Shown piece after piece: positions 27,540 through 43,779 of a DNA stretch of 64,000 nucleotides (position 1 is the stretch's first letter; each line of letters begins with the position of its first letter). Source of the stretch: Candidatus Dormibacteria bacterium (lineage in GTDB: Bacteria > Chloroflexota > Dormibacteria > Aeolococcales > Bog-877); contig JBEKRL010000004.1 of the NCBI GenBank assembly GCA_049518775.1, positions 4,968 through 68,967 on the forward strand. The letters run 5' to 3'. Below the pieces are notes generated by a model. It ran no database searches. It saw only the letters and a list, made by a program, of their open reading frames with translations, and was not told the DNA's origin. A program made the position numbers and the translations under genes.

Positions 27540-28215
27540 TGTCTCTCCGCGGCCGGCCCCTTCCCGGCGCGAAAGTCGAGAGGGCCTACACCCTGCTCGC
27601 GAAAGTGGAGGCGGCAGTCGAGCCCCCCGTCGATAGTCGTCTGACGGAGATGACCCTGCCCGGCGAGCGACCTCGGCCTGCCACCGGCGGCGTCGATGAT
27701 GAGGTCGCAACGGTCGAGGTCGTTCGCTAGCACTGGGTCAAACCGAGCGTGGTGGTGCATTCTTCCCGGCAACCGCTGACCTGGGGGTTGAGCCGTCGCC
27801 GCCTCGAATTGGGCCGACGAGGAGGGAATGGTAGTGCATGCCGGCGCATGACGGGTCTCCGGGGGGCACCGCTTCCGGTTACCTGGGCGCCCTGCCTGCG
27901 GTGAGGGAATGATTCTCACCGCGGAGGTAGGAGTCGATCGGGAGTCGGTGCCCGCTTGCCCGGGGCACGCCGCCGAGGCCTGGGCGTGCACCTCGTGGGG
28001 CCATGGGAGCGTCACCACCGCACGTCTGAAGGCCAGGCCGCAGCCGCCCGTTGTCCCCGCTGATCTGGGTAATCTTGCCCCGCGTGTCCGCCAGGTCCGT
28101 CCGAGGATTCCAGCCGCTGGCGGGAGTCGACGAGGAACCAGGGCCTCACCACCGCCTCCGGGACAATCCCCAAGCCGCGCATCACAAGGTGTTCAACGCT
28201 GGAGGTCAGGTGAGC

Positions 28216-28299: not shown

Positions 28300-29757
28300 C
28301 TATGTCTCCGAGGCGCGGGTGGCGGCTGCTTCCTTCCGCACGCTGCCCACGGAGAGGACGAAGTAGACAAGGCCGCCGACGAGAATGCCGACCACCCAGC
28401 TGAAGTCAGCACCTCCGGTAGCCTTGGAAAGCGGGCCCGTAAAGGAGGGCACGTAGAAGGCGGCATCGATCCACAGCATCGCGGCCACCATTCCCAGCGC
28501 CTGAGCGACAAGCGCCTTCCAGTTCACACCGCCGTTCCGCCAGTACAGTCCGCCAATCCTCGACACCAGCGAGCCGGTGTCGTAGCGGCCACGGCGGAGC
28601 AGGTAGTCGACCATCAAGATCCCGAACCAGGGTCCGAGCCAGACCACGATGTAGTCCAGGAAGCCCGACAGGTCGGTGTAGAACTTGCCCTTGAAGATCA
28701 CCAGGGCGGTGACGGCCCCGGCCACGATGGTGTCGATGACGACCGCTCCCCAGCGCTTGATCGGCAGCCCCAAGGCCTGAAGCGTCACCGACGACGAGTA
28801 CATGTCGATCGAGTTGATGGCGAACAGCTGGGGGAGGACCAGGATGAGGAAGGGCCAGAAGAACCAACTCGCGAACGAGGATGGCACGCCGGTCACAGCG
28901 GTCACGCTCGGGCTCACAATGAAAGCCAGCGCTCCCAGAATCTCCAGCAGGATCGCGGGGATGGCGCCGCCCAGGGTGGCGGCCCAGAACGTCCTGGCCT
29001 TGGGTGTCGAGCGGGGCAGGTAGCGCGAGTAGTCGGCGGCATTCTCGGTCCAGCCCAGGCCACCAGCCGAGACGATCAGCACTACGGCAGTGGTCCACAG
29101 CGCCCACGAGCCTGACTGATGGAAGTGGGAAAGGTTGACATGGGGGATGACCAGCACCGCCATGATCACGAAGAGCACGATGAAGACGTAGGACAGGTAG
29201 CGCAGGAGCCTGGTGATCATCGCGTGGCCGAGGAACGGCACTATGAACTGAATCAGGACGGCCGCGACTATCAGGATGGCCTTGAGCCCGGTCCCGACCC
29301 CGATGCCGCCCTTGACGAACATCGCCACGGCCACCAGCACGACAAGCACGATGCCCTCGATCTCAAAGCCCACCTGGGTGAGCCAGTTGAAGAACGAGAC
29401 CACTCGGTTGCCGTTGATCCCGAAGGGGGCTCTGGAGACCATGAAGGCCGTGGTGCCGGTCTCTGGCCCGGGCAGGCTGGCCCAGCCCAGGAATGAGTAG
29501 AAGAGGTTGCCAACCAGGATGGCGAGCACCGCCTGGCCGAATGAGAGTCCGAATGAAATCGCCAGAGCTCCGTAGACCAGGAACTCAACGTTCCAAATCG
29601 CCCCGGCCCAGAGCCAGAACAGCCCTGAGGGCTTCATCTTCCTGTCCGCGTCGGGGATCAGATCGATGCCGCGCTGCTCGACCTTGAGCGCCGAGTACTC
29701 CTCCGTCGCCGGGACGGGCGCGCCCTGCCCTACATTGGTCGGATAGTTCCTTGCCAA
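28300..29757 (-). CDS. NCS1 family nucleobase:cation symporter (cytosine/purine/uracil/allantoin permease-like)
   Basis: 12-TM NCS1 profile (ALKVEQRGIDLIPDADRK...LFWLWAGA..); TTG 29757 preceded by AGGGGGGA RBS; upstream part of ORF (to 30168) is Pro/Arg-rich and non-coding. Confidence 0.8.
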   Translation of the reverse strand: MARNYPTNVGQGAPVPATEEYSALKVEQRGIDLIPDADRKMKPSGLFWLWAGAIWNVEFLVYGALAISFGLSFGQAVLAILVGNLFYSFLGWASLPGPETGTTAFMVSRAPFGINGNRVVSFFNWLTQVGFEIEGIVLVVLVAVAMFVKGGIGVGTGLKAILIVAAVLIQFIVPFLGHAMITRLLRYLSYVFIVLFVIMAVLVIPHVNLSHFHQSGSWALWTTAVVLIVSAGGLGWTENAADYSRYLPRSTPKARTFWAATLGGAIPAILLEILGALAFIVSPSVTAVTGVPSSFASWFFWPFLILVLPQLFAINSIDMYSSSVTLQALGLPIKRWGAVVIDTIVAGAVTALVIFKGKFYTDLSGFLDYIVVWLGPWFGILMVDYLLRRGRYDTGSLVSRIGGLYWRNGGVNWKALVAQALGMVAAMLWIDAAFYVPSFTGPLSKATGGADFSWVVGILVGGLVYFVLSVGSVRKEAAATRASET

Positions 29758-30779: not shown

Positions 30780-32186
30780 TCAACTCGGGTACTGGCAGAA
30801 GCCCCGCACGATGAACCGCCCGTCGCCGCGCCGGCCGACGTATTGGCCCCGGTCCAGCACCACCGAACCCCGCAGAAGCACCGTTTCCACCCGCCCCGAG
30901 ATCTCCATGCCCTCGTAGCAGGAGTAGTCCACTGCCATGTGATGGGTGCTGGCGGAGATCGTGCTCCGCGCAGAGGGGTCGTAGATCACCACGTCGGCGT
31001 CGGCCCCTGGCCGCAGGCTGCCCTTACGGGGATACATGCCGAACATCTTGGCCGGCGAGGTCGAGGTCACGTCGACCCAGCGGGTGAGGCTGAGCATGCC
31101 TCGCACCACCCCTTGGTGGATCAGGTTCATGCGGTGCTCCACCCCGGGCAGCCCGTTGGGAATCTTGGAGAAGTCACCGCGGCCCAGGTCCTTCTGCCCC
31201 TGGAAGCGGAAGGGACAGTGGTCGGTGGCGACCACCGACAGGTCGCCGCCGTGGAGGCCGCGCCAGAGGGCCAGCTGATCGTGGCTCGACCTCAGCGGCG
31301 GGGAGCAGACGAATTTGGCACCTTCGAATCCGTCCCTGGCCAGATCGTCCTCGGAGAGGAAGAGGTATTGGGGGCAGGTCTCCGCGAAGACCGGCTGGCC
31401 CCGGTCGCGGGCCCCCACCACCTCCGCCAGCGCCGCCGCCGCCGAGACGTGCACGATGTACAGGGAGGCTCCGGCCACCCTGGCCAGCTGGATCGCCCGA
31501 TGGGTGGCCTCCCCCTCCAGGACCGCCGGCCTGGTCGAGGAGTGGAAACGGGGAGCCACCTCACCGCGGGCCAGGGCCTGGGCCACCAGCAGCTCGGTCG
31601 CGATCCCGTTCTCGGCGTGAATCTGGATCAGGGCCCGGTTGTGGGCGCCGTGCTGGAGCGCAGCCAGGATCTGGCCATCCGTGGAATAGGAGACACCGGG
31701 ATAGGCCATGTAGAGCTTGAAGCTGGTCACTCCCTCATCGACCAGCTGGTCCATCTCGCGCAGGGAGGACTCGTTGACATCGGCGAAGCCCATGTGAAAG
31801 CCGTAGTCGGCAGCGCAGTTGCCCTCCGCCTTGAGCCGCCAGCTCTCCAGCGCGTCATGCAGCGACCCACCCCGGATCTGGCTGGCGAAGTCCACGATGG
31901 TCGTGGTACCCCCCCAGATGGCCGCCCTGGTGCCGGTCTCAAAGGAGTCGGAGGCGACCGTGCCCGCGACCGGCAGCTCCATGTGGGTGTGGGCGTCCAC
32001 CCCGCCCGGCAGCACGTACCTGCCCGCCGCCTCCAGGACTCGGTCCGCCGACTCTGCGAAGGCCTGGCTCAGCTCCGACCGGGCGGCGGCCAGGCCGACG
32101 ACCCGCTGGTCTTCGATCAGCACGTCCGCCGGCTCGGCCGAGTCCGCAGTCAGGACGGTGCCACCCCGGATGATCAGGCGCGCCAC
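30780..32186 (-). CDS. dihydropyrimidinase / D-hydantoinase (cyclic amidohydrolase; HyuA/YgeZ-like position)
   Basis: GGVDAHTHMELP, FKLYMAY (carboxylated Lys), HAENG, DHCPF, KIPNGLPGVEHRM; GTG start with GGGAGATGAG RBS. Confidence 0.85.
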   Translation of the reverse strand: MARLIIRGGTVLTADSAEPADVLIEDQRVVGLAAARSELSQAFAESADRVLEAAGRYVLPGGVDAHTHMELPVAGTVASDSFETGTRAAIWGGTTTIVDFASQIRGGSLHDALESWRLKAEGNCAADYGFHMGFADVNESSLREMDQLVDEGVTSFKLYMAYPGVSYSTDGQILAALQHGAHNRALIQIHAENGIATELLVAQALARGEVAPRFHSSTRPAVLEGEATHRAIQLARVAGASLYIVHVSAAAALAEVVGARDRGQPVFAETCPQYLFLSEDDLARDGFEGAKFVCSPPLRSSHDQLALWRGLHGGDLSVVATDHCPFRFQGQKDLGRGDFSKIPNGLPGVEHRMNLIHQGVVRGMLSLTRWVDVTSTSPAKMFGMYPRKGSLRPGADADVVIYDPSARSTISASTHHMAVDYSCYEGMEISGRVETVLLRGSVVLDRGQYVGRRGDGRFIVRGFCQYPS

Positions 32187-32373: not shown

Positions 32374-33333
32374 TCAGTCCCTGGTGATTCGCGTGCCGGT
32401 CTCGCCCCGCAGCGCTCGCTCGATGTTGGCAGGGTTGGTCACGATCGCCTCCTTGCCACCGGCGTCGAGATAGTTGAGCACGGCCTGGATCTTCGGAGCC
32501 ATGCTGCCGGCGGCGAAGTGGGTCCCCTGTTGCAGGTACTCGCGGGCCTGCGCCGCCGTCAGATGATCGACGTCGTGCTGCTCCGGGGTACCGAAGTACA
32601 GCGCCACCTTCTCCACCGCGGTGGAGATCAGCAGCAGGTCCGCCCCCAGTTTTGCCGCCAGCAGGGCGGAGGCGAGGTCCTTGTCAATGACCGCCGCGAC
32701 CCCTCGCAGCTGCCCTTCGTCGTCGGCGACCACGGGGATCCCCCCGCCGCCCACGGTGATGACGATCGTGCCACTCTCGACCAGCCGCCGGATCGCGGGC
32801 AGCTCCACGATGCGCTTCGGGAGTGGGGACGCGACCACACGGCGCCAGCCCCGGTTGGCATCCTCGATCAGGGCCCAACCGTCCGCCCGCCGGCGCTCGG
32901 CCATCGCCTCGTCCATGAAGGAGCCTATGGGCTTGCTGGGGTGGGAGAAGGCCGGGTCGTCAGCCGCCACCACGGTCTGGCAGATGACAGTGACCGCCTC
33001 GCGGTCGATCCCCAGATCCAGAAACTCGTTGTGGAGGTTCTGCTGAAGTTCGTAGCCGATGGCGCCTTGGGAGTCGGCCCCGCACACGTCGAGCGGCACC
33101 TCATGGAGCTCGTGCGCAGCGAGCTCGGAGCGCCGGAGGATGAAGCCCACCTGGGGGCCGTTGCCATGACTCACGACCACCGTCCAGCCCGCCTTCACCA
33201 TCGCCGCGATGTGGTGGCTGGTCTCCTTGGCGGCGAGGTTCTGGTCCTCAACCGATTGGTGTGCCTTGTCGATGATCAGCGAGTTGCCCCCGATCGCCAC
33301 CACCGCGGTTCGCTCGGCCCTGGCCGCGCTCAT
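32374..33333 (-). CDS. arcC: carbamate kinase
   Basis: VVAIGGNSL, GNGPQVG, GGGGIPV, AAGSMAPKI motifs; ATG overlaps upstream stop (ATGA). Confidence 0.85.
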   Translation of the reverse strand: MSAARAERTAVVAIGGNSLIIDKAHQSVEDQNLAAKETSHHIAAMVKAGWTVVVSHGNGPQVGFILRRSELAAHELHEVPLDVCGADSQGAIGYELQQNLHNEFLDLGIDREAVTVICQTVVAADDPAFSHPSKPIGSFMDEAMAERRRADGWALIEDANRGWRRVVASPLPKRIVELPAIRRLVESGTIVITVGGGGIPVVADDEGQLRGVAAVIDKDLASALLAAKLGADLLLISTAVEKVALYFGTPEQHDVDHLTAAQAREYLQQGTHFAAGSMAPKIQAVLNYLDAGGKEAIVTNPANIERALRGETGTRITRD

Positions 33334-34307
33334 CGCATCGTCAGGGCCATCACGGCCTTCTGCCCGTGGAGGCGGTTCTCGGCCTGGTCATAGACCGCGG
33401 AGTGGGGCCCGTCGATGACCCCGTCGGTCACCTCGACGTTGCGTGCCGCCGGCAGGGGGTGCATGAAGATGGCATCCTCGCTCGCGGTGGCCATGTGGGC
33501 TTCGTCGGTCATCCAGGACCGGTACTTGTTGATGAGGCGGGTCTCCTCGGCCTCGTCCGAGGTGGTGACCATCGCTCCCCAGCTCTTGGCATACACCACG
33601 TCGGTACCCCGGAAGCCGGCCTCGAAGTCGTCCATCAGCTCGAAGCCGACATGGGCCCGCCGCGCGTTCTCCTTCATCTGCTCGACTATCTCGGGCATCA
33701 GAGCGAACTCCGGCGGGTGGACCAGGCGCACGTTCATGCCGAAACGCGGCAGCAGCAGCGCCAGGCTCTGCGGCGCACTCACCGGCTTCAGGTAGGTCGG
33801 ATCGTGCGCCCAGCTCACCGTGGCGGTCCGGCCCCGGAGGTCCTTGAAGCGCTCGAGGATCGTCATCAGGTCCGCCAGGGCCTGGTGGGGGTGGTAGACC
33901 TCGCACTGCATATTGAGCACCGGGACGCGGCTCGCCTCGGCGACGTCCCGGATGTAGCGGTTGCCCACGCCCCAGTCCACGTTGCGGATCGCGATCCCGT
34001 CGTTGTAGCGGCCGAGGATCTCCCCGATCTCCTTCGCCGTGTCGCCATGCGCGATCTGAGTGGTCCGGGATTCGATGAACTGCGCATGTCCTCCGAGCTG
34101 CGCCATTCCGGCCTCGAAGGACGCCCGGGTCCGGGTCGAGGAGAAGAAGAAGAGCATGGCCAGCACCTTGTCGCGCAGGAGCGGATGGGGGATCCCCAGC
34201 GCGCGCTCCCGCTTCAGAATGAAAGCCACGTCGAGCAGGGTCTCGATCTCGCCCAGGGTCCACTCCTGCAGGTCGATCATGTCGCGCCCGCGCAGGTCTG
34301 TCTGCAT
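33330..34307 (-). CDS. carbamoyltransferase, OTC/ATC superfamily (YgeW-like paralog 1)
   Basis: STRTR carbamoyl-phosphate motif, HPHQ and HPLPA motifs, N-terminal DLRGRDMIDLQEWTLGEI. Confidence 0.75.
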   Translation of the reverse strand: MQTDLRGRDMIDLQEWTLGEIETLLDVAFILKRERALGIPHPLLRDKVLAMLFFFSSTRTRASFEAGMAQLGGHAQFIESRTTQIAHGDTAKEIGEILGRYNDGIAIRNVDWGVGNRYIRDVAEASRVPVLNMQCEVYHPHQALADLMTILERFKDLRGRTATVSWAHDPTYLKPVSAPQSLALLLPRFGMNVRLVHPPEFALMPEIVEQMKENARRAHVGFELMDDFEAGFRGTDVVYAKSWGAMVTTSDEAEETRLINKYRSWMTDEAHMATASEDAIFMHPLPAARNVEVTDGVIDGPHSAVYDQAENRLHGQKAVMALTMR

Positions 34308-34312
34308 GGCCG

Positions 34313-35266
34313 TCAGTCCACCGCGCCGAGGACGAGTGCGAGCAGAGCCATGCGCATCACCACCCCGTTGAAGGCCTCGACCCAGTAGCGGGCGTGGCGA
34401 GTGGCGTCGACCTCGACCGGCAGCTCGTCCATCCGGGGCAGCGAGTGCACCACGATCGCCCCACCCTTGCCCTTGGTCCGCAGCAGCTCCCGGGTGACCC
34501 GGTAGGCGGCGGGAGTGCGACCCTTGTCCTCGGTCGCCTCGACGCGCGACTGGGTGTAGTCGGGCTGCACCACGGGCTCCATGTAGATGACATCGGCGCC
34601 CTCGATGCAGGCCTCGACGCTCTCCATCTCCTGGTAGCGGACGCTGCGCTCATCGAGCTCGGCCTTGAACTCCGGGAGCAGCGACATGTCCGGCGGGGAG
34701 ACCACGAACGCCTCCATGTCGAACTGGGACATCGCGTAGAGGATGGAGTGCATCGTGCGCATCCGCATGTCGCCGACCAGCAGAACCTTCAAGCCATCGA
34801 GGGTGCCCTTGTCCTGCCAGATGGTGTACAGGTCGGTGAGCACCTGGGTGGGGTGCTCGCCCCATCCGTCCCCGCAGTTGATGACCGGTACCGAGGCCCA
34901 TTTTGCCGCCTCGTGCGGCGCACCCTGCTGGAAGTGGCGCATGGCGATGACATCGCCGTAGTACTCGAGCATGTGCACCGTGTCCTTGATCGACTCCTGA
35001 TAGAAGTCGCCCGCCCTGGTCATCTTGGCATCGGAGAAGCCGAGGACGTGGCCGCCGAGACGGTGCATTGCTGCCTCGGTGGCCAGCCGGGTGCGGGTGC
35101 TCGGTTGGTAGAAGGCGGTGAGCAGAGTCTTGTGCTGGAGCAGGTCACCGTTGCGCCGCTCGGCTGCATACGGCTTGAGTTCGTCGGCCACCCGGAAGGT
35201 CTGGAAGTACTCCTCTCGCTCCATGTCCTTCAGGGACAGAATGTCGCGGCCGAGAAAGCTCCTCAT
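34313..35266 (-). CDS. carbamoyltransferase, OTC/ATC superfamily (paralog 2)
   Basis: STRTR, HPTQ, HSLPR motifs; ATG 35266 with GGAAGGGAGAA RBS (ORF open to 35416). Confidence 0.75.
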   Translation of the reverse strand: MRSFLGRDILSLKDMEREEYFQTFRVADELKPYAAERRNGDLLQHKTLLTAFYQPSTRTRLATEAAMHRLGGHVLGFSDAKMTRAGDFYQESIKDTVHMLEYYGDVIAMRHFQQGAPHEAAKWASVPVINCGDGWGEHPTQVLTDLYTIWQDKGTLDGLKVLLVGDMRMRTMHSILYAMSQFDMEAFVVSPPDMSLLPEFKAELDERSVRYQEMESVEACIEGADVIYMEPVVQPDYTQSRVEATEDKGRTPAAYRVTRELLRTKGKGGAIVVHSLPRMDELPVEVDATRHARYWVEAFNGVVMRMALLALVLGAVD

Positions 35267-35434: not shown

Positions 35435-36931
35435 TCAGGCGGTCGCCGGGGCGCCGACCTGGGCGTTGAACTCGGCGATGAGCTCATCCCAGGCTCCTAC
35501 CTGTTCCATGAGCCCATCCCAGAATGCCTGGCGCCGACGCACCTCGAAGGCCTCGAGCGACACTCCCTGCTGTTCCACCCAGGTGAAGTAGCCAAGGTTG
35601 AAGATCCGGGTCCGGTCCTGGTGCCGAAGCTCCAGCAGCTCGGAGTGCTCGGCATCCTGCAGATCTCGCGCCAGGGCGGCCAGGGCAGCTGGTTCGTCCA
35701 GGCCCTCAGGGAAGTCACGCCGGACCCGGGCCTGACGCTGGTCGGCGTACATCGCCGCCCCGTCGGTGGCCAGGGTCAGGACCAGGTCCTCTGGACCCAG
35801 CTCAAAGTGGCGGGCCACCGCCACGGCAGCCACCACGTTGGCCAGCGCCGACAGGCCGAAGTGGGCCATCCCCGCCAGCAGCGATTGCTCCAGACCGGGG
35901 GCCTGCTGCAGAGCCGCCAGCCCTTCCTTGGTGTGGAAGATGGCATCCAGCCGGTCGGTGTTGCGGTCCGACACCGCCACCACCACGTCGGTGTTCATGA
36001 CGTTGTGGATGAGGGGAATGTGCTTGTCACCGATGCCCTGGATGTTGTGGTCCCCGAAACCGTTGCGCAACATGGTGGCGCACTCCACCGGTTCCGCGGC
36101 CACGGTTCGCGTCCCCAATCGCTGCTTCAGGTGGTCGCCAGCGCCGAGGGAGCCCGATGAGCCGGTGGTGGCGACGAAGGCGAAGGGCTGCAGCTGGGGT
36201 CGCTGGACCCGCAGGTGCTCCACCAGCCGCTCCAGGGCCCGCCCGGTGCAGAGGCGGTGGACCACATAGTTGGGGTACTCGGCGAACTGGTTGAGGATCA
36301 CGTTGCGCTCGTCCTCGGCCAGTTCCTGGCAACGCTCGTAAATCTCCCGCACGTTGCTCTCACCACCGGGCGTGGTGATGACGTCGCTGGGTTCCGCGAC
36401 CCAGCGACGCAGCCACTCGAAGCGCTCGGTGCTCATGTCCTCGGGGAGTACCGCGACGCCCCGGCATCCCAGCATCCGGGAGATCGCCACCCCGCCGCGG
36501 CAGAAGTTCCCGGTCGACGGCCAGACCGCGCGCTGCGAGGTGGGGTCGAAGCCACCGCTGACCAGACGCGGTGCCAGGCAGGCGTACGCAGCCAGCACCT
36601 TGTGGGCCCCGATCATGGGGAAGCGGTCCGCCAGGGCGACCACGATGGTCGCGGGGACGCCGGTCAGTTCCGGCGGGAGCACAAGGTGGCTGGGCACGGG
36701 GACCAGGCTCCGCCGGTCGGCTCCGTTGTACCAGTGAACCCGGTAGAGGTTGCGGGGGTCGGGGGCGTCGGGGTCGATGCCGATCAGCTGGGAGAGGAGC
36801 TGAACGTCAAGGCTGCTGGGGTCAGCGAGCTCTGCGAAGGTCGGTAGGACGATGGCGAGTTCACGGCAGCGCGCGACCGCCTGCCGGTATGCGGTCGGAT
36901 CGGTGATGCCCCCTGCTGTCTCCACCATCAC
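35435..36931 (-). CDS. PLP-dependent enzyme, tryptophan-synthase-beta (fold type II) superfamily, unusually long (498 aa)
   Basis: fold-II-like Gly-rich loop (ATTGSSGSLGAG) and length/architecture; exact subfamily not recognisable by eye; AGAGGTGA RBS. Confidence 0.55.
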   Translation of the reverse strand: MMVETAGGITDPTAYRQAVARCRELAIVLPTFAELADPSSLDVQLLSQLIGIDPDAPDPRNLYRVHWYNGADRRSLVPVPSHLVLPPELTGVPATIVVALADRFPMIGAHKVLAAYACLAPRLVSGGFDPTSQRAVWPSTGNFCRGGVAISRMLGCRGVAVLPEDMSTERFEWLRRWVAEPSDVITTPGGESNVREIYERCQELAEDERNVILNQFAEYPNYVVHRLCTGRALERLVEHLRVQRPQLQPFAFVATTGSSGSLGAGDHLKQRLGTRTVAAEPVECATMLRNGFGDHNIQGIGDKHIPLIHNVMNTDVVVAVSDRNTDRLDAIFHTKEGLAALQQAPGLEQSLLAGMAHFGLSALANVVAAVAVARHFELGPEDLVLTLATDGAAMYADQRQARVRRDFPEGLDEPAALAALARDLQDAEHSELLELRHQDRTRIFNLGYFTWVEQQGVSLEAFEVRRRQAFWDGLMEQVGAWDELIAEFNAQVGAPATA

Positions 36932-37259
36932 TCACCTCTCTCATCGACCGGTGATCCAAAGTCGTGGCCTCGGGGCCCAGTGCGCGGGCAGGATACCATC
37001 CCGCCACGACGCTTCCGGCGAGTGCCAGCCCAGCTTGATTCGATCTCAGCCAGCATGGGCGCGGTCCGTCCCAGGGGCGGATGTGAAACTCCGCTTCCAT
37101 GAGTGGCTTACCGTCGTTGTCGCCTTGGCAAGCGTTTTGTGACGCCCTGCTCGCCCGGGAGCGGGGCCGCTCAGGAACCGGGACCGTGCCTGCCGTCAGT
37201 GCTCCTGCGGTGGCGGTGGCGCTGCCGCGGCCGTCCGGAGACACGCACAGGCGAGGGGC

Positions 37260-38294
37260 TCAAACCAATTCCAGGATTGGCTCTCCCGGTTGGCTGTCCC
37301 GCACCTCTCCGATCAGCACCGCGGAGGGCAGCAACTCGACGAGGTGGGCAGCGCGGTCGGCCCCGAGCGTGATCACCAGTCCTCCGCTGGTCTGAGCGTC
37401 GCAGGCCAGGATGAGCAGGGCATCGGGGACGTCAGCCGCGATTCGAGTAACGGTTCGGGCCAGCTCCAGATTGCGCCTGGTTCCTCCCGGGATGCGTCCC
37501 TGCGCGACCAGGTCGAGGGCACCCGGCAGCAGGGGAAGGTCTGCGGCTCTAACTGTGACTTGAACTGACGAAGCCCGGGCGAGGTTGTGGAGGTGGCCCA
37601 GGAGCCCGAAGCCGGTCACATCGGTGGCGGCGTTGGCGCCGGCCTCGACCATGGCCTGGGCCGCCGCCCGGTTGAGCTGGCGCATGGTGGCGACCGCACC
37701 TGCCAGGACCGTCGCTGCCACCTGCTGAGCCTTGTGAGCGTTGAGGATCACCCCCGTTCCCAACGGTTTGGTGAGGAAGACCAGGTCTCCGGCGCGAGCG
37801 GTGGCGTTGGTGATCATCCGGCGGGGATCGACCGAGCCCAGCACCGCGCATCCGAAGATCGGCTCGGGACTGCGGATGGAGTGGCCACCGGCGATCGCGC
37901 AGCCGGCTTCGGCCGCCACCTCCGCGCCCCCCTCGAGGATCTGCCGGAGGATCTGCCCGTCGAGGTTGGCCAGGTCGAAGCCCACCAGGTTCAGGAGCAG
38001 GAGGGGAGTGCCACCCATCGCGTAGATGTCGGAGAGGGCGTTGGCGGTGGCGATGCGACCGTAGTCGCGGGGATCGTCGACTGGGGGCGGGAAGAAGTCG
38101 GTGGTGGCGACCACGGCCAGGCTGTCGCCAACCCGGTATACGGCTGCATCGTCCATGGTCTCGGCCGAGACCAGCAGGTCGCCGCTCGCCGGGGAGGCGA
38201 TCCCGGCCAGGATGGAGGCCAGGTCGGCCTGGGCGATCTTGGCGGAACACCCGCCCTGCCCGGTGAGCTCTGTCAGTCGCACGGATCCCGCCAC
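37260..38294 (-). CDS. selD: selenide, water dikinase (selenophosphate synthetase), Cys-type
   Basis: N-terminal RLTELTGQGGCSAKI (Cys at the Sec/Cys position), PurM-like fold motifs; GTG 38294 with GAAGGAG RBS (ORF open to 38477 would overlap upstream gene by 130 bp). Confidence 0.85.
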   Translation of the reverse strand: MAGSVRLTELTGQGGCSAKIAQADLASILAGIASPASGDLLVSAETMDDAAVYRVGDSLAVVATTDFFPPPVDDPRDYGRIATANALSDIYAMGGTPLLLLNLVGFDLANLDGQILRQILEGGAEVAAEAGCAIAGGHSIRSPEPIFGCAVLGSVDPRRMITNATARAGDLVFLTKPLGTGVILNAHKAQQVAATVLAGAVATMRQLNRAAAQAMVEAGANAATDVTGFGLLGHLHNLARASSVQVTVRAADLPLLPGALDLVAQGRIPGGTRRNLELARTVTRIAADVPDALLILACDAQTSGGLVITLGADRAAHLVELLPSAVLIGEVRDSQPGEPILELV

Positions 38295-38347
38295 GCCATC
38301 TCCTTCACCCTCGCACAGGACGGCACCCGCAGCCGTGGCCCAACCGG

Positions 38348-39730
38348 CTACAGCACCGGCCAGCGTGGGCCGGGGTCGATTCCGGTGGACCGGTAGAGCC
38401 GCCCAGCTCGCTCCCGGGCCTGAGCCACCGCTCTCTCCTCGTCGATGGTGAGCAACCGCCCATCCCGGACCAGCCACCTGCCATCGACCATCACCGAGTC
38501 CACGTCAGCCCCGGTGGAGGCGTAGACCAGCGAGGAGACCGGGTTGAGGCCGGGCGCCATGTGGGCGCGCTCACGGTCGACGACCACCAGGTCAGCCTTC
38601 TTGCCCACCTCGAGCGAACCGATCTCGTGCTCCCAGCGCAGCGCCTTGGCTCCATTGATCGTGGCCATCTCCAGCACCGTCTCCGCGGGCACGACGGTGG
38701 GGTCCCGTGAGACCGCCTTGTGAACCAGGGCCGCCAGCTTCATCTCCGCGAGGAGGTCGTAGGTGTTGTTGCTGGGACCTCCGTCGCAGCCGAGGGCCAC
38801 GTTCACCCCGGCTGCCAGCAGCTTGGGGACCGGGCAGACCCCCGAGCCCAGCTTGGAGTTGGAGGAGGGGTTGTGGGACACGCTGGTGCCGGTCTCGGCC
38901 AGGATGCGAATGTCCTGGTCATCGATCCACACCATGTGCACCAGGACCACGTCAGGACCCACCAGGCCCACGCTGCGGGCGAACTCCACGGGAGACATCT
39001 GGTACGTCTGGCGCAGGAACTGGCGGTCCGCCTCGATCTCGGCCAGGTGCATGGTGATCTCCATGCCCCGGCTCCGGGCCTCGGACACCATCTCCCGGTA
39101 GAGCTCGGGAGACACCCCCCCCGGGGTCCGGGGGCCGAAACCGACGTGGATCCGGCCGTCGGCCGCCCCGTCCCAGCGGTCGAACATGTCGAGCGTGGTC
39201 AGCAGGCTCTCCTCGCGGGTCTCGCGCAGCCCCATCGGCATGGCGTTGTCCTGGGTTGCGTAGGTGGCGATGTCCATCACCTTCTTGGTCAGGCAGGCGC
39301 GGATGCCGGTGTCGACGACCACTTGGGCCACTCCGTCGAAGCCGTACCGATGCGCCAGGCCCGACTCCAGAAACGTGGTGGTGCCGGACCTCAACATCTC
39401 GGCGATGCAGAGGCGGGCGCTGACCACGCCATCCTCGTGGTCATAACTGCCCTGCAGCACCCACACCCGCTCGCAGAGCCATTGGACCAGCGCCATGTCG
39501 TCAGCGCAATCGCGGATCATCGCCTGCGCTTCGTGGACGTGGGTGTCGACCAGCCCGGGGATGATCAGCTTGCCGGCGAGGTCGATCTGCTCCTCGTCAG
39601 GATAGGCGCGCAGAACCTCGTCGGCCGGGCCCACCGCCGCGATGCGGTCCGCCCGCGCCACCAGCGCGCCGCGGCGAAAGATCCTGCGCCCGGGATCCAC
39701 CGTGATGATCGTCGCCCCGTTCAAGAGCAT
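38348..39730 (-). CDS. amidohydrolase, SsnA/chlorohydrolase/nucleobase deaminase-like
   Basis: metal-dependent hydrolase motifs (GLVDTHVHEAQ, ..MHLAE.., ..HNPSSN.., GCDGGPSNN); ATG 39730. Confidence 0.75.
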   Translation of the reverse strand: MLLNGATIITVDPGRRIFRRGALVARADRIAAVGPADEVLRAYPDEEQIDLAGKLIIPGLVDTHVHEAQAMIRDCADDMALVQWLCERVWVLQGSYDHEDGVVSARLCIAEMLRSGTTTFLESGLAHRYGFDGVAQVVVDTGIRACLTKKVMDIATYATQDNAMPMGLRETREESLLTTLDMFDRWDGAADGRIHVGFGPRTPGGVSPELYREMVSEARSRGMEITMHLAEIEADRQFLRQTYQMSPVEFARSVGLVGPDVVLVHMVWIDDQDIRILAETGTSVSHNPSSNSKLGSGVCPVPKLLAAGVNVALGCDGGPSNNTYDLLAEMKLAALVHKAVSRDPTVVPAETVLEMATINGAKALRWEHEIGSLEVGKKADLVVVDRERAHMAPGLNPVSSLVYASTGADVDSVMVDGRWLVRDGRLLTIDEERAVAQARERAGRLYRSTGIDPGPRWPVL

Positions 39731-39794: not shown

Positions 39795-41165
39795 TCAATC
39801 CATGACCGCCCGGTGCCACAGGGCACCGGCGCGCTCCCGGCTGCGGGCGGCGATCTCCTCCTCGTCGAGGCCGACCAGCTCCCGCCGTCGCATCAGCCAC
39901 CGCCCCGCCACCATCGTGTCGGAGACCTGGCAGCCATCCGCTCCGGCGACGATATGTCCGCCCACGTTGCTGGCGGTGAGCGGCGTGGGCGCCCGGTAAT
40001 CCAGGAGCACCAGGTCCGCTGGTCCTCCCACCCGCAGCTGCCCCAGCGGCCCCAGTTGGGGGACGAAGGGAGCGAAGAGCGAGTCGCAGATCCGCCCGCC
40101 GCCGGAGAAGGCGAGCGCCACCACCTCATCCGGCGGCAGCAGCCGGGGATCCCGGCCGGTCAGCCGGGCCTGTGACTGAGCGGCGCGCATCTCCTCGAAC
40201 ATGTTCATGCTGACGCCGTCGGTGCCCAGCCCGATCGTCACCCCGGCCTGGCGGAGCGCGGTGATGGGGGCGCTGCCCACCGCGTTGCCCATGTTGGAGC
40301 GGGGGTTGTGCGCGACCGCCACCCCGGCCTGGGCCAGCTCGGCGATCTCGCGGCCGTCGACGTGGACGCAGTGGGCGGCGAGCGACCCGGGGCCCAGCAC
40401 GCCGTGGGCTACCAGGTGCGGTACGACGCGACTGGCGAAGCGACGCTGACAGTCCTCCTGATCGACCGGGCCCTCGGCGACATGCACGTGGCAGCCCACC
40501 CCCTGCGCCGCGCCCAGGTCAGCGCAGGCGGACAGGGTCGCGGGGCTCAGGGTGAATGAGGCATGCAGCCCCACGGCCGCGGCCAGGCGGCCCCCCGGAG
40601 CGGCGGTTGGGGAGCGCAGGGAACTAATGAAACGCGCGTTCTCACGGATCCCCGCCTCGGTGTCGGCCGTGCCGTTGCGCTCCGACACCTCGTAGGCGAG
40701 GCACGCGCGCAGCCCCGAGGCCTCCACCGCGGTGGCGATCACGTCCAGGCTGCCGTCCACGCAGGATGGGCTGGCATGGTGGTCGACCAGGGTGGTGACG
40801 CCGTGCCGAATCGCGTCGACCAGACTCACCTCGGCGCTGGAGGCGATGTCCGCCGGGGTGAGGAGGCGGTCCAAGCGCCACCACAGCCCTTCCAGGATCT
40901 CCTGGAAATCCCGCGGCGGGTCCCCGGGAAGGGCCATGCCGCGGGCGAACGCGGAGTACAGATGGGTGTGCGTGCAGAGCATCCCCGGCAGGCACAGGCC
41001 GCCCTCCGCATCCACCAGCTCGGCCTCCGGATGTTCGGCCGTCAGTGAGCTCGAACCGATGGCCCCGATCCGGCCATCCGCCACCAGGATCGCCCCGGTC
41101 TCCACCAGGGGGGCGCGCTCGTCCATGGTCACCACGGTGGCATTGGCGATGCAGATCGGCTTCAC
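39795..41165 (-). CDS. amidohydrolase, SsnA/TRZ-ATZ-like (second paralog)
   Basis: GMLCTHTHLYS, VHVAE, HNPRSN, GTDGVSMN motifs; GTG 41165 inferred (ORF open to 41447 is Pro/Gly-rich). Confidence 0.75.
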   Translation of the reverse strand: MKPICIANATVVTMDERAPLVETGAILVADGRIGAIGSSSLTAEHPEAELVDAEGGLCLPGMLCTHTHLYSAFARGMALPGDPPRDFQEILEGLWWRLDRLLTPADIASSAEVSLVDAIRHGVTTLVDHHASPSCVDGSLDVIATAVEASGLRACLAYEVSERNGTADTEAGIRENARFISSLRSPTAAPGGRLAAAVGLHASFTLSPATLSACADLGAAQGVGCHVHVAEGPVDQEDCQRRFASRVVPHLVAHGVLGPGSLAAHCVHVDGREIAELAQAGVAVAHNPRSNMGNAVGSAPITALRQAGVTIGLGTDGVSMNMFEEMRAAQSQARLTGRDPRLLPPDEVVALAFSGGGRICDSLFAPFVPQLGPLGQLRVGGPADLVLLDYRAPTPLTASNVGGHIVAGADGCQVSDTMVAGRWLMRRRELVGLDEEEIAARSRERAGALWHRAVMD

Positions 41166-41391: not shown

Positions 41392-42444
41392 TCATGGCGC
41401 CGGGTTCGCCTGACCGCCGGCCCCGGAACCGGGGGTGACACCCTCAAGGCCGCCGGCGAAGAGGTCGATCATGGCCCGAACGTCCGGACCCAGCGGGTAC
41501 AGCACCGGGCAGGTGCAGCCGCTGGCGACGTACTCGGCAACCTTGGCCCGGCACTCGTCGGGCGTCCCGGAGGCGCTGAGCATCTGCACCACGTCATCGG
41601 GCACCAGGTGGGCGGCCTCCACCACCTCCGCATGGGTGGCCGGCCAGTGCAGCACCGCGGCGATGCGGTCGAGCAGGTCCTGGGGTACGCCCGACGCCTT
41701 CATGAGATGGGGCTGCTGGCCCAGGTACTGGGTGATCAGCAGGCGCGCCGCATCCAGCGCCACCCGGCGGTCCCGGTCCAAGGAGCAGATGACCAGCTGG
41801 GGACGGTCGACGTCCACGACCCCGCGGCCGGCCCGCGCCGCCCCTTGTTGCAACTGCTCCAGCGCCTGGCGGGTGTAGCCGGGTGACACCAGATAGTTGA
41901 GCAGGACCCCATCAGCTATCTCCCCCGCCAGCTCCATCATCCGCGGCCCGGTGGCGCCGATGTAGATCGGTACCGCCTTGGGTCGCCGCTCCTGATGCAC
42001 GTAGTCCAGCTCCACCGCGTCGAGGTGGACGAACTCTCCCTGGAAGGTCACCGACCCGCCCGCCAGCAGAGCTCGGACCGTGGTCACCGTCTCTCTCATG
42101 GCGACCACCGGCCGGGAGCGCTGGATGCCGACGCGGCTGGCCAGGGGGTCCCACCAGTCACCGATCCCGAGCATGACCCGACCCGGCGCCAGGTCGTCCA
42201 GGGTGGAGAAGGTGGAAGCCAGCAGCGCGGTGTTGCGCGTCCACCGGTTGACCACGCCGCTGCCCACCAGGATCCGCTCGGTCGCGGTGAGGAACGCGGC
42301 CATGGGTACCGTCGCCTCCCGGGCCAGCCGGCTCTCGGCCTGCCATACCGCGGAGAAGCCATTGGCTTCGGCGTACTGGGCCAGGGTGATCCCCTGGCGC
42401 ACGGAGTGGGCGTCCTGAAGGTAGAGGGCGACGGGGACGGTCAC
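41392..42444 (-). CDS. LLM class (luciferase-like) flavin/F420-dependent oxidoreductase
   Basis: typical LLM N-terminus [20 protein letters not shown] and TIM-barrel length. Confidence 0.7.
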
Positions 42445-42633: not shown

Positions 42634-43779
42634 CTAGTTCCCCGGGCTGTCTCCGACCACCGCCCGGTAGCCGGCCGGATCGGTGGCCCCCTCGGTGTTC
42701 ACGATCAGCACCCGCGCCTTCCGGCCCAGGCCCAGCGCCAGGCGGGCCTGCCGCTGCTCTGCCAGAGCCAGCAGTCCCGCCACGCCCGCGGCGCCTGACT
42801 CCCCGGATTCGACGCCGGCGGCCGCCAGATCGCGCATCGCCTTCCGGGCCCACTCATCATCGATGGCGCAGAAGACGGTGGCGAGCGCCTGGACGTAGGG
42901 CCAGGCCACCAGGGACGGTGTTCCGCAGTTCAAACCGGCCATGATCGAGTCCTGGGTGGCATCGACACTGGTGCGCCGGCCCGCGCGTGCCGAGGCCAGG
43001 CAGCAGGCGGCGGTCAGGGGCTCGACGACGGCCATTCGAGGCGGCCGGGGGACGCTCAGGTAGTACCTGGCGGCCGCCCCGGCCAGGGCCCCGACGCCCG
43101 CCTGGATCAGCACCACGTCCACCGGTCCGGGAAGCTGGTCGGCGCACTCCGCAAAGATGGTCTGGTAGCCATCCATGACCCAGCCGGGGACGGTCACGTC
43201 CGTCCCGATGGCCACGTCGACCACCAGCAGCCATCCCTGGCTCGCGGCGGCGGCGGTGGCGGCCTCCACCGCCTGGTCGAAGGTGCCCGGTTCCACCCGC
43301 ACCAGCGCGCCCTCGCCCTCGAGGGCCTCGATCCGGGCGGGTACGGTCTCGTCGGGGACATACACGACCGCGTTCAGGCCGAGCTCGCGAGCCATGTGAG
43401 CCACGCCTCGGCCGTGGTTGCCGTCGGTGGCGGTGACCAGGGTGAGGTCGCCCATGCCGGCGGCCGCCGCCTGCAGCTGGGCCCAGCCCGATCCGGCGAA
43501 GGGCAGGCCCGCTCGTCCCAGGATCAACCGGTTGACGGCCCAGGAGCCACCCAGGATCTTGAAGGAGGGGAGGCCGAGGCGCTCGCTCTCGTCCTTGATC
43601 CAGAGCTCGCCAACTCCGAGCTCCTCCGCAAGCTTGGGGAGGAGGTGCACGGGCGTGGGCGCGTAGCCCGGGATGGTGCGGTGGAAGGGCCTCGGATCCT
43701 GGACACCCTCGACGGGCTCGCTCGGACGCGGTCCCGCGTCCAGCACCAGCACCTCCGGGGGGGTGGCCGCAGGACTCAT
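42634..43779 (-). CDS. 2,3-diaminopropionate ammonia-lyase (YgeX/DpaL-like, PLP fold II)
   Basis: FKILGGSWA, TATDGNHGRGVA and IVNTEGATDP motifs, closely resembling E. coli YgeX. Confidence 0.75.
   Translation of the reverse strand: MSPAATPPEVLVLDAGPRPSEPVEGVQDPRPFHRTIPGYAPTPVHLLPKLAEELGVGELWIKDESERLGLPSFKILGGSWAVNRLILGRAGLPFAGSGWAQLQAAAAGMGDLTLVTATDGNHGRGVAHMARELGLNAVVYVPDETVPARIEALEGEGALVRVEPGTFDQAVEAATAAAASQGWLLVVDVAIGTDVTVPGWVMDGYQTIFAECADQLPGPVDVVLIQAGVGALAGAAARYYLSVPRPPRMAVVEPLTAACCLASARAGRRTSVDATQDSIMAGLNCGTPSLVAWPYVQALATVFCAIDDEWARKAMRDLAAAGVESGESGAAGVAGLLALAEQRQARLALGLGRKARVLIVNTEGATDPAGYRAVVGDSPGN

What the first reader, a model, noticed from the sequence alone, without database searches (positions are those of the whole stretch)
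37260..38294. Cys-type SelD inside a molybdenum-hydroxylase operon
selD (QGGCSAKI, Cys not Sec) lies between amidohydrolase and PLP genes of the purine cluster. No selA/selB/selenoprotein with in-frame TGA is evident in the window. This is the arrangement expected when selenophosphate is made for a selenium-containing Mo cofactor (or 2-selenouridine) and not for Sec insertion.
Basis: partly seen in the sequence, partly recalled or inferred. Interest (0 to 1): 0.55.

Follow-up and report, generated by a model that had tools for sequence, protein, structure and literature searches.

The report
SelD inside a selenium-dependent purine-degradation cluster
A working selenophosphate synthetase gene sits inside a purine-degradation gene cluster of an uncultured peat-soil bacterium, next to the known marker for selenium-containing molybdenum enzymes; this is a known arrangement, seen here in a new lineage where the gene has moved out of the selenocysteine operon.

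Summary
Window 37260-38294 (-) encodes a 344-aa Cys-type SelD (TIGR00476, 358 bits against a cutoff of 125; its Cys and Lys align to E. coli Cys17 and Lys20). It lies between a 460-aa amidohydrolase and a 497-aa PLP enzyme, inside an anaerobic purine-degradation cluster of the 2,8-dioxopurine type. It lies 11.7 kb away and heads a second XDH operon. This matches the "third selenium trait" (Haft & Self 2008; Zhang 2008), shown experimentally in C. difficile (2024) and C. sporogenes (2025). It is therefore a new member of a known kind, in an uncultured Candidatus Dormibacteria MAG.

What is new is the history. SelD relatives at 74-81% identity all sit in selA-selB-selD operons, one beside a Sec-containing FDH. 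A sister MAG has the same purine cluster with no selD at this site. An 89% relative has selD flanked by IS elements. So selD moved into the cluster and remains under purifying selection (dN/dS 0.18).

"Not for Sec insertion" is unproven. About 80 kb around selD holds no selA, selB, selU, yqeC or tRNA-Sec, but the rest of the genome could not be searched.

The parts
37260..38294 (-). selD, a Cys-type selenophosphate synthetase of 344 aa
   Evidence: TIGR00476 at 358 bits against a cutoff of 125. Cys and Lys align to E. coli Cys17 and Lys20. The exact product is called in public assemblies. dN/dS is 0.18, and all population variants are synonymous.
36962..38349 (.). 1,388-nt segment carrying selD. 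It replaces a 198-nt intergenic spacer found in sister MAG L096, so it is an insertion or relocation.
   Evidence: Homology to L096 stops at window 38350 and resumes at 36961. The spacers are unique to this population and show no similarity to sel-operon flanks and no IS relics.
38348..39730 (-). 460-aa TRZ/ATZ-type amidohydrolase (deaminase-like), immediately upstream of selD
   Evidence: Amidohydro_1 at 253 bits. The best NCBIfam hit, NF005557, scores 415 bits, below its cutoff. The gene is called at 460 aa.
39795..41165 (-). SsnA aminohydrolase (456 aa), the ring-opening step of the 2,8-dioxopurine pathway
   Evidence: NF005540 at 459 bits against a cutoff of 444. Gene call. Role taken from the Liu et al. 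2025 preprint.
41392..42444 (-). F420-type luciferase-like oxidoreductase, occupying the cluster position where gut bacteria have YgfK/DOPOR
   Evidence: Bac_luciferase at 213 bits, with F420 LLM families as the top NCBIfam hits. Conserved at 91% in L096.
42634..43779 (-). YgeX-type diaminopropionate ammonia-lyase
   Evidence: NF006058 at 356 bits against a cutoff of 276.
43997..46966 (-). Fused [2Fe-2S] + molybdopterin subunit (989 aa) with XdhD/DOPDH-like architecture. A candidate selenium-dependent hydroxylase.
   Evidence: Fer2, Fer2_2, Ald_Xan_dh_C and MoCoBD_1/2 domains. TIGR03313 at 725 bits and NF043082 at 731 bits, both below their cutoffs. The nearest solved structure is 4-hydroxybenzoyl-CoA reductase alpha.
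46963..47892 (-). FAD-binding subunit (YgfM/XdhB-like)
   Evidence: FAD_binding_5 and CO_deh_flav_C domains. Gene called at 309 aa.
47901..49619 (-). Adenine deaminase, first gene of the minus-strand run
   Evidence: TIGR01178 at 557 bits against a cutoff of 472.
49952..50806 (+). YqeB, the accessory protein that marks selenium-dependent Mo hydroxylases (short form, about 280 aa)
   Evidence: TIGR03309 at 349 bits against a cutoff of 220, matching profile positions 3-256 of 256. The likely start is 49952-49964, and the stop overlaps the xdhB start.
50788..51672 (+). XdhB-like FAD subunit of the second hydroxylase
   Evidence: NF043083 at 161 bits, below its cutoff, with full-length alignment.
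51670..52213 (+). [2Fe-2S] small subunit of the second hydroxylase (start approximate)
   Evidence: Fer2_2 at 101 bits, plus Fer2.
52210..54687 (+). XdhA-like molybdopterin subunit (825 aa), a candidate xanthine dehydrogenase
   Evidence: NF043082 at 732 bits and NF007426 at 703 bits, both below their cutoffs. Gene called at 825 aa.
54684..55877 (+). XdhC-family Moco maturation factor (397 aa)
   Evidence: XdhC_CoxI and XdhC_C domains. NF045664 at 243 bits.
35435..36928 (-). 497-aa fold-type-II PLP enzyme of unknown function, immediately downstream of selD
   Evidence: PALP at 51 bits, with only weak CysK similarity. It belongs to a large conserved family. It directly follows the amidohydrolase in L096.
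34313..35266 (-). ATCase-like carbamoyltransferase (317 aa)
   Evidence: OTCace_N and OTCace domains; TIGR00670 at 247 bits.
33330..34307 (-). OTCase-like carbamoyltransferase, a functional analogue of YgeW but not a YgeW family member
   Evidence: NF001986 at 255 bits. The YgeW models score 160-171 bits against cutoffs of 453-500.
32374..33333 (-). Carbamate kinase (YqeA/ArcC)
   Evidence: NF009007 at 385 bits against a cutoff of 266.
30780..32186 (-). D-hydantoinase/dihydropyrimidinase (HyuA-like)
   Evidence: TIGR02033 at 554 bits against a cutoff of 393.
28300..29757 (-). NCS1 nucleobase:cation symporter
   Evidence: TIGR00800 at 118 bits. Transp_cyt_pur domain; gene called at 485 aa.

Best explanation
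selD encodes an active Cys-type selenophosphate synthetase. Its product is used to put a labile selenium ligand on the molybdenum cofactor of the two xanthine-dehydrogenase-family enzymes encoded nearby. These are a fused FeS+Mo XdhD/DOPDH-like enzyme (43997-46966) and a three-subunit XdhA-like enzyme (50788-54687).

Proposed steps: SelD converts selenide and ATP to selenophosphate. YqeB, an XdhC-related accessory protein co-transcribed with the second hydroxylase, together with the XdhC-family factor, delivers selenium to Moco before or during insertion. The mature enzymes then feed adenine, hypoxanthine, xanthine and urate into a 2,8-dioxopurine-type anaerobic pathway (SsnA, hydantoinase, carbamoyltransferases plus carbamate kinase giving ATP, and YgeX giving pyruvate).

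In this Dormibacteria population selD was moved out of the ancestral selA-selB-selD operon into the spacer after ssnA-amidohydrolase. Selenophosphate synthesis is therefore likely co-expressed with purine catabolism.

Shown here: gene identities, intact catalytic residues, the insertion, purifying selection, and descent from sel-operon SelDs. Inferred: selenium dependence of these particular enzymes, the role of YqeB, and co-transcription.
For: SelD identity and intact active site. YqeB above its equivalog cutoff, with its stop overlapping xdhB. Cluster content: SsnA, YgeX, carbamate kinase and hydantoinase all above their cutoffs, plus an XdhD-like architecture. Gaps of only 64 and 53 nt link ssnA, the amidohydrolase and selD, and selD has a GGAG ribosome-binding site.

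Literature: TIGR03309 was found only in selD-positive genomes, and orphan selD genes lie next to Mo hydroxylases (PMC2276186). selD lay near yqeB/yqeC in 5 organisms, all with orphan SelD (PMC2432076). C. difficile selD and yqeB mutants lose growth on xanthine and urate, while yqeC is dispensable (PMC11448449). DOPDH purified from a C. sporogenes selD mutant is inactive (bioRxiv 10.1101/2025.04.24.650524).

selD is under purifying selection at its new site: dN/dS 0.18, and 17 of 17 population differences are synonymous. The arrangement is fixed on at least 12 independent contigs.
Against: No YqeC and no MocA/YgfJ in about 80 kb, whereas the published trait signature is SelD+YqeB+YqeC. Both Mo subunits score below every equivalog cutoff, including the selenium-linked TIGR03311 and TIGR03313 models. 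No sequence feature is known that separates Mo=Se enzymes from Mo=S enzymes. An XdhC-type (sulfuration-type) maturation factor is present. The sister MAG runs the same cluster without selD at this site, so physical linkage is not required. The closest SelDs serve Sec decoding. No SirA/YedF-like protein or NifS-like selenocysteine lyase is nearby, unlike in E. faecalis.
Confidence: 0.75

Rival explanations
1. Dual use. The organism still has selA, selB, tRNA-Sec and Sec-containing FDH elsewhere in its genome. The single selD serves both Sec synthesis and the Mo-cofactor pathway, so it is not an orphan SelD. This rivals the reader's 'not for Sec' clause. It is compatible with the best explanation.
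For: Of the 9 loci sampled from this SelD lineage, 7 are selA-selB-selD or selB-selD operons (L005, L086, L087, L178-L181), and L182 is a further one. L005 carries an FDH with an in-frame TGA in the motif CNRT-U-HAPSV. The window's SelD is nested within these on a tree. About two thirds of organisms with the Se-cofactor trait also have the Sec or SeU trait.
Against: Moving the only selD under a purine-catabolic operon would tie Sec synthesis to purine availability. No selA, selB, tRNA-Sec or relics occur in about 80 kb. In Zhang 2008, all 5 cases of selD co-localised with yqeB/yqeC had an orphan SelD. No lineage SelB cluster is seen on more than 6 contigs, whereas this population's proteins are seen on 15-24, though that column proved unreliable.
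Confidence: 0.4
2. Incidental location. selD landed in the purine cluster through IS-mediated shuffling and serves only Sec or other selenium uses. The two hydroxylases are ordinary sulfur-dependent enzymes matured by the XdhC-like factor.
For: In the 89% relative L085, selD is flanked by IS630- and IS110-type transposases. The sister MAG L096 has the cluster without selD at this site. An XdhC-family factor is present. The Mo subunits score below the cutoffs of the selenium-linked models.
Against: YqeB, reported only in selD-positive genomes and required for growth on xanthine and urate in C. difficile, heads the adjacent xdh operon. SsnA, YgeX and XdhD-type clusters are selenium-dependent wherever they have been tested. 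The arrangement is fixed and under purifying selection. selD has short gaps to ssnA-amidohydrolase on the same strand.
Confidence: 0.12
3. Selenophosphate is made for another product, such as 2-selenouridine in tRNA (SelU) or selenoneine/selenosugars (SenA/SenB).
For: A GT4 glycosyltransferase at 20386-21474 gives a faint SenB hit of 25.8 bits.
Against: No SelU/YbbB hit in any scanned ORF. The SenB hit is far below its cutoff of 300, and the better hits for that protein are to generic GT4 families. No EgtB/SenA-like gene is present. The glycosyltransferase lies 16 kb away among unrelated genes.
Confidence: 0.03

Closest known systems
Orphan-selD / selenium-dependent molybdenum hydroxylase loci of Enterococcus faecalis V583 (EF2563-EF2581), Haloarcula marismortui pNG7 and Clostridium phytofermentans (Haft & Self 2008; Zhang et al. 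2008)
   Same: selD is embedded among XDH-family Mo hydroxylase genes, YqeB (TIGR03309), an XdhC-type factor, and purine-catabolic genes: a carbamoyltransferase, YgeX, a hydantoinase and carbamate kinase.
   Different: No YqeC, MocA/YgfJ, SirA-like (TIGR03527) or NifS-like selenocysteine lyase occurs near selD. The carbamoyltransferases are not YgeW-type. Orphan status is unproven, because the close relatives use Sec. The host is an uncultured peat-soil Dormibacteria, not a Firmicute or a haloarchaeon.
2,8-dioxopurine pathway cluster of Clostridium sporogenes / E. coli (xdhAC or xdhD = DOPDH, ygfK = DOPOR, ssnA, hyuA, ygeW, ygeY, ygeX, yqeA; Liu et al. 2025 preprint)
   Same: It has a fused FeS+Mo hydroxylase, SsnA, a hydantoinase, YgeX, a carbamoyltransferase with carbamate kinase, and a separate XDH. 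In C. sporogenes both Mo enzymes need SelD.
   Different: YgfK/DOPOR is absent and an F420-type LLM oxidoreductase sits in the cluster instead. YgeY is absent from the window, though present in sister MAG L096. There are two OTC/ATC-like carbamoyltransferases, an extra amidohydrolase and an extra PLP enzyme. selD itself lies inside the cluster. The habitat is free-living rather than gut.
Clostridioides difficile selD/yqeB-dependent xanthine and urate utilisation (Johnstone & Self 2024)
   Same: It shows YqeB without a need for YqeC: the yqeB mutant phenocopies the selD mutant, and yqeC is dispensable. This matches a YqeB-only locus.
   Different: In C. difficile, selD, yqeB and yqeC are dispersed around the genome and the organism also uses Sec. 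Here selD and yqeB lie within 12 kb of each other and no yqeC has been found so far.
selA-selB-selD operons of sister Dormibacteria MAGs (L086, L087, L181; GCA_050734255.1, GCA_054609775.1)
   Same: These carry the same SelD lineage at 74-81% identity, also Cys-type and of the same length.
   Different: There selD overlaps the end of selB and is followed by zf-CGNR and FDH-associated genes. Here it has been detached and placed in the purine cluster.

Membership tests
SelD (selenide, water dikinase; TIGR00476) | Whole-protein HMM score above the curated cutoff, with AIRS N- and C-terminal domains | tested here: met
   TIGR00476 at 358 bits against 125 and NF002098 at 335 bits against 299. AIRS at 93 bits and AIRS_C at 49 bits.
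SelD (selenide, water dikinase; TIGR00476) | Glycine-rich N-terminal loop with Cys or Sec at E. coli position 17 and Lys at position 20 | tested here: met
   GQGGCSAKI aligns to E. coli GAGCGCKIS in 3u0o: Cys on Cys17 and Lys on Lys20. The codon is TGT, not TGA.
SelD (selenide, water dikinase; TIGR00476) | ATP-dependent formation of selenophosphate from selenide | not testable with these tools
   Functionality is supported only indirectly, by conserved Asp and Asn motifs and purifying selection.
Se-cofactor (SDMH) utilisation trait | YqeB (TIGR03309) present together with SelD | tested here: met
   Window 49952-50806 scores 349 bits against a cutoff of 220 over the full profile, 11.7 kb from selD.
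Se-cofactor (SDMH) utilisation trait | YqeC (TIGR03172) co-occurring with YqeB. The published signature is SelD+YqeB+YqeC. | tested here: inconclusive
   No hit in any scanned ORF of the window. Pfam content shows nothing YqeC-like in 10 kb to the right or 5.8 kb to the left. YqeC is dispensable in C. difficile, and YqeB-only, SelD-positive genomes are known.
Se-cofactor (SDMH) utilisation trait | XDH-family Mo hydroxylase genes and an XdhC-type factor clustered with the markers | tested here: met
   Two hydroxylases (43997-47892 and 50788-54687) and an XdhC-like factor (54684-55877).
Se-cofactor (SDMH) utilisation trait | Labile, non-Sec selenium in the mature enzyme that is required for activity | not testable with these tools
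   This needs 75Se labelling or enzyme assays. No sequence signature for Mo=Se is known.
Orphan SelD (SelD without the Sec or SeU traits) | Genome-wide absence of selA, selB, selC and selU/ybbB | not testable with these tools
   These genes are absent from the window and its flanks, about 80 kb in all. The close relatives have sel operons.
2,8-dioxopurine pathway gene cluster | DOPDH: a fused FeS+Mo XdhAC/XdhD-type subunit | tested here: inconclusive
   The architecture matches, but TIGR03313 scores 725 bits against a cutoff of 1102 and the XdhA model scores equally well at 731 bits.
2,8-dioxopurine pathway gene cluster | DOPOR (YgfK), the NADPH:2,8-dioxopurine oxidoreductase | tested here: not met
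   No YgfK-like protein in the window or its flanks. An F420-type LLM oxidoreductase lies in the cluster instead.
2,8-dioxopurine pathway gene cluster | SsnA, a hydantoinase, YgeX and carbamate kinase | tested here: met
   NF005540 at 459 bits against 444; TIGR02033 at 554 against 393; NF006058 at 356 against 276; NF009007 at 385 against 266.
2,8-dioxopurine pathway gene cluster | YgeW knotted carbamoyltransferase and YgeY M20 hydrolase | tested here: not met
   The YgeW models score 160-171 bits against cutoffs of 453-500. There is no M20 peptidase in the window. YgeY is present in sister MAG L096 at 451 bits against 321.
Selenocysteine-decoding trait | selA, selB, tRNA-Sec and a gene with an in-frame UGA in the locus | tested here: not met
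   None in the window or its flanks. Genome-wide status is unknown.

The most novel reading that the evidence does not exclude
This would be a snapshot of a switch between selenium traits. In a lineage that ancestrally uses selenocysteine (selA-selB-selD plus Sec-FDH), IS activity cut selD out of the sel operon and a purine-catabolic operon captured it. Sec decoding was then lost, and selD survives only to feed a YqeB-only (YqeC-less) selenium-molybdenum cofactor pathway. That pathway would serve an F420-dependent, YgfK-less and YgeY-less variant of the 2,8-dioxopurine pathway in a free-living peat bacterium.
Probability: 0.3. Interest if true: 0.5.

Novelty: new member of a known kind. Interest (0 to 1): 0.3.

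Why it matters
The finding extends the selenium-dependent molybdenum-hydroxylase trait, and a 2,8-dioxopurine-type purine pathway, from gut Firmicutes and enterobacteria to uncultured Dormibacteria that are abundant in peat and permafrost soils. That implies a selenium requirement for anaerobic purine turnover in those soils. The relocation of selD, with sister genomes showing the empty site, the ancestral operon and an IS-flanked intermediate, gives a concrete route by which orphan SelD genomes can arise. The locus is also a natural YqeB-without-YqeC case, consistent with the recent C. difficile genetics. None of this changes the established picture; it adds a well-documented example.

Tried and rejected
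1. Metagenome scan with an alignment of three lineage SelB proteins.

2. Inferring 'selB without selD' from mismatched longest-contig values. This was wrong: the candidate L181 turned out to be a full selA-selB-selD locus.

3. Abundance argument. This population's proteins are seen on 15-24 contigs, against 6 or fewer for every lineage SelB cluster. I kept this only as a weak hint, because the contig column is inconsistent (8 listed against 13 read for P0121).

4. Look-up of the NCBI-only MarR protein to fetch the left flank failed. DUF2089 was used instead.

5. A YqeC P-loop motif recalled from memory was not found in any of the six frames. This is weak evidence because the motif is unverified.

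6. The 11-nt direct repeat ATCCCGCCACG at 36998 and 38285 was considered as a target-site duplication or microhomology. I rejected it as chance level: about 2 exact 11-mers are expected in a region of this size and GC content, and 3 were found.

7. The PLP enzyme next to selD was considered as a selenium-specific partner, such as a selenide supplier. I rejected this: it directly follows the amidohydrolase where selD is absent (L096), occurs outside purine clusters (L097), and belongs to a very large cross-phylum family.

8. Assembly chimera was rejected on the evidence of at least 12 independent contigs.

9. Recent horizontal acquisition of selD was rejected. Its GC (0.69) equals that of its neighbours, and its dS against L085 (0.40) matches that of the syntenic response regulator (0.36).

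10. The promoter and terminator scan around selD found nothing informative.
Full report
**Observation**

The minus-strand ORF at 37260-38294 is a real gene. It starts with a GTG 8 nt downstream of a GGAG motif. GC3 is 0.83 within the gene but 0.57 in the 61 upstream codons of the longer ORF. Public assemblies call exactly this 344-aa product. It matches TIGR00476 selD at 358 bits (cutoff 125) and NF002098 at 335 bits (cutoff 299). In the alignment to E. coli SelD (PDB 3u0o), the Cys of GQGGCSAKI falls on Cys17 and the Lys on Lys20, and the acidic motifs are conserved. It is therefore a Cys-type SelD.

The upstream neighbour is a 460-aa TRZ/ATZ-type amidohydrolase with a 53-nt gap. The downstream neighbour is a 497-aa fold-type-II PLP enzyme with a gap of about 330 nt.

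The window has no tRNA and no Rfam hit. No SelA, SelB or SelU appears among the scanned ORFs. The only coding-like in-frame TGA is the antisense shadow of selD. tblastn finds no relics of the lineage's SelA, SelB, FDH or zf-CGNR proteins.

**Surroundings**

Gene order on the minus strand:

| Coordinates | Product |
|---|---|
| 47901-49619 | adenine deaminase |
| 46963-47892 | FAD subunit |
| 43997-46966 | fused [2Fe-2S]+Mo subunit, 989 aa, XdhD-like |
| 42634-43779 | YgeX diaminopropionate ammonia-lyase |
| 41392-42444 | F420-type LLM oxidoreductase |
| 39795-41165 | SsnA |
| 38348-39730 | amidohydrolase |
| 37260-38294 | selD |
| 35435-36928 | PLP enzyme |
| 33330-35266 | two carbamoyltransferases |
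| 32374-33333 | carbamate kinase |
| 30780-32186 | hydantoinase |
| 28300-29757 | NCS1 nucleobase transporter |
| 26445-27710 | acetate kinase |

Diverging from adenine deaminase on the plus strand is YqeB (TIGR03309, 349 bits against a cutoff of 220, full profile). Its stop overlaps the start of an XdhB-FeS-XdhA operon, which ends in an XdhC-family maturation factor.

It is the most specific evidence for the interpretation. Haft & Self found TIGR03309 only in selD-positive genomes and proposed it as the accessory-protein marker of selenium-dependent molybdenum hydroxylases (PMC2276186).

**Comparison with what is known**

The arrangement is the published 'third selenium utilisation trait'. 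Orphan selD genes lie next to Mo hydroxylases, YqeB/YqeC and purine-catabolic genes in E. faecalis, H. marismortui and C. phytofermentans.

It has since been tested experimentally. C. difficile selD and yqeB mutants lose growth on xanthine and urate, while yqeC is dispensable (PMC11448449). In C. sporogenes the fused FeS+Mo enzyme is 2,8-dioxopurine dehydrogenase (DOPDH). It and XDH require SelD, and DOPDH purified from a selD mutant is inactive. [quoted passage not shown]

The window carries SsnA, a hydantoinase, YgeX and carbamate kinase, all above their curated cutoffs, and an XdhD-like architecture. It lacks YgfK, YgeY, a true YgeW, YqeC and MocA. I therefore describe it as working like an SDMH / 2,8-dioxopurine cluster and as a member of the Se-cofactor trait by the SelD+YqeB criterion. 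The YqeC criterion stays open, and several pathway-membership features are not met.

**Source organism and history**

Proteins from the window are identical to NCBI entries MGA2872226-MGA2872275 of a 'Candidatus Dormibacteria bacterium' MAG, on an 81,874-nt contig. The same population recurs in many peat and soil metagenome assemblies.

The SelD belongs to a Dormibacteria lineage of about 47 clusters at 62-100% identity. Sampled contexts are as follows:

| SelD identity to window | Locus | Context |
|---|---|---|
| 81% | L178, L179, L180, L181, L182 | selA-selB-selD or selB-selD, followed by zf-CGNR and FDH-associated genes |
| 79% | L005 | selB-selD next to an FDH-alpha with in-frame TGA in CNRT-U-HAPSV |
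| 77% | L086 | selA-selB-selD |
| 74% | L087 | selA-selB-selD |
| 89% | L085 | selD between the C-terminus of an IS630-type transposase and an IS110-type transposase, upstream of HK/RR/Pat genes |

The HK/RR/Pat genes of L085 correspond to window 56.5-62.3 kb. A neighbour-joining tree puts the window, P0001 and P0002 (L085) in a clade nested among the sel-operon SelDs.

A sister MAG (L096, GCA_054609555.1, about 84% nucleotide identity) has the purine cluster with no selD at this site. Its order is XdhD-like, amidohydrolase, YgeX, a true YgeY, LLM, cytosine-deaminase-like, SsnA, then the 460-aa amidohydrolase followed directly by the PLP gene. Homology with the window stops at 38350 and resumes at 36961. 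A 198-nt spacer there corresponds to a 1,388-nt selD-bearing segment here.

None of the 80 genome loci with SelD relatives carried any cluster protein within 10 kb. The flanks of the inserted segment are unique to this population and carry no IS relic.

selD's GC equals that of its neighbours. Its dS against L085 (0.40) matches the syntenic response regulator (0.36). dN/dS is 0.18, the same as between two sel-operon copies, and all 17 nucleotide differences among 10 population contigs are synonymous. The best reading is that selD moved within the genome lineage, from the sel operon into the purine cluster, and has been kept functional there.

**Is it an orphan SelD?**

About 10 kb to the right and 5.8 kb to the left of the window contain no selenium-related genes. 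The metagenome scan with SelB failed on generic patterns. Abundance comparisons give only a weak hint that this population lacks a lineage-type SelB.

For orphan status: all five cases of selD co-localised with yqeB/yqeC in Zhang 2008 were orphans, and placing the only selD under purine-operon control would be awkward for a Sec user. Against it: all the sel-operon relatives described above, and the fact that two thirds of organisms with the trait also have Sec or SeU. I put the chance that the organism still decodes Sec at about 0.4.

**Mechanism**

Shown here:
- an intact Cys-type SelD
- YqeB coupled to an XDH operon
- an XdhC-type factor
- two XDH-family enzymes
- the catabolic enzymes

Inferred by homology to the C. 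sporogenes, C. difficile and E. faecalis systems: SelD makes selenophosphate, and YqeB (with XdhC) uses it to install the labile selenium ligand on Moco of both hydroxylases. These then channel adenine, hypoxanthine, xanthine and urate into ring opening (SsnA, hydantoinase), carbamoyl-phosphate-linked ATP formation and pyruvate (YgeX).

Short same-strand gaps of 64 and 53 nt suggest an ssnA-amidohydrolase-selD transcription unit. This too is an inference, since the promoter and terminator scan was uninformative.

**Rivals**

- Dual use with Sec, about 0.4. This is compatible with the main mechanism.
- Incidental IS-driven placement with sulfur-type enzymes, about 0.12.
- Other selenium products such as SeU or selenoneine, about 0.03.
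- An assembly artefact is excluded.

**Verdict**

The finding is real and correctly read in its main thrust, but the idea has been known since 2008 and tested experimentally in 2024-2025. The new elements are the host (a free-living Dormibacteria), the documented relocation of selD out of a Sec operon, the YqeB-only locus, and a variant pathway gene set (F420 LLM in place of YgfK; two carbamoyltransferases and no YgeY). Novelty: new member of a known kind. Interest: 0.3.

Noticed in passing
window 41392-42444 (-); L096:4378-5430: An F420-type luciferase-like oxidoreductase is conserved inside the purine cluster, at 91% aa identity between the window and the sister MAG. It sits where gut bacteria have the NADPH-dependent YgfK/DOPOR, and no YgfK occurs in about 80 kb. 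It may be an F420-dependent replacement for the 2,8-dioxopurine reduction step.
   Followed up: partly
window 33330-35266 (-) and 32374-33333 (-); L096:3075-4307: The window has two carbamoyltransferases (OTC-like and ATC-like) plus carbamate kinase, but no YgeY M20 hydrolase. The sister MAG has a true YgeY (451 bits against a cutoff of 321). Both ureido groups of 2,3-diureidopropanoate might be removed by phosphorolysis here, which would double the ATP yield. This is inference only.
   Followed up: partly
window 35435-36928 (-): A 497-aa fold-type-II PLP enzyme with only weak CysK similarity and no NCBIfam equivalog. It belongs to a very large family at about 60% identity across Actinomycetota, Chloroflexota, Armatimonadota, Nocardioides and Anaeromyxobacter. 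Its function is unknown. In L097 it lies outside any purine cluster.
   Followed up: partly
L085:1-2650: In an 89% relative, selD is bracketed by the C-terminus of an IS630-type transposase and an IS110-type (Transposase_20) gene. This looks like a mobilised selD and may be an intermediate in the relocation.
   Followed up: partly
L005:16493-16495 (first base at 16495), minus strand: An FDH-alpha gene with an in-frame TGA in the motif SCNRT-U-HAPSV, next to selB-selD. The record is labelled 'Candidatus Nanopelagicaceae', but its SelD and SelB group within Dormibacteria, so the taxonomic label is probably wrong.
   Followed up: partly
window 43997-46966 (-): The nearest solved structure to the XdhD-like subunit is 4-hydroxybenzoyl-CoA reductase alpha (1rm6, 406 bits), a reductive dehydroxylase. 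The Mo=Se enzyme nicotinate dehydrogenase (3hrd) is a more distant match. This fits a reductive, DOPDH-like role, but it is not a test of that role.
   Followed up: no
window 59167-59625 (+): A stand-alone 152-aa HATPase_c fragment follows the GAF histidine kinase and response regulator pair. It matches only the C-terminal third of MctS-type kinases. It is conserved in L085 and in all the population contigs.
   Followed up: no
window 24121-24975 (+) and 25088-25414 (+): An ArdC-N / IrrE-like metallopeptidase protein followed by a small HTH_3 protein. This pairing is typical of mobile-element or stress-regulator modules.
   Followed up: no
L187:2159-3513; L188:1941-3295 (about 3 kb left of the window start): Three consecutive Transposase_mut (IS256-type) fragments, apparently a decayed IS, lie just outside the left end of the window.
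   Followed up: no
window 55849-56358 (-) and 63081-63557 (+): Two universal stress protein (Usp) genes flank the HK/RR/Pat-like acyl-CoA synthetase block, immediately downstream of the xdh operon.
   Followed up: no
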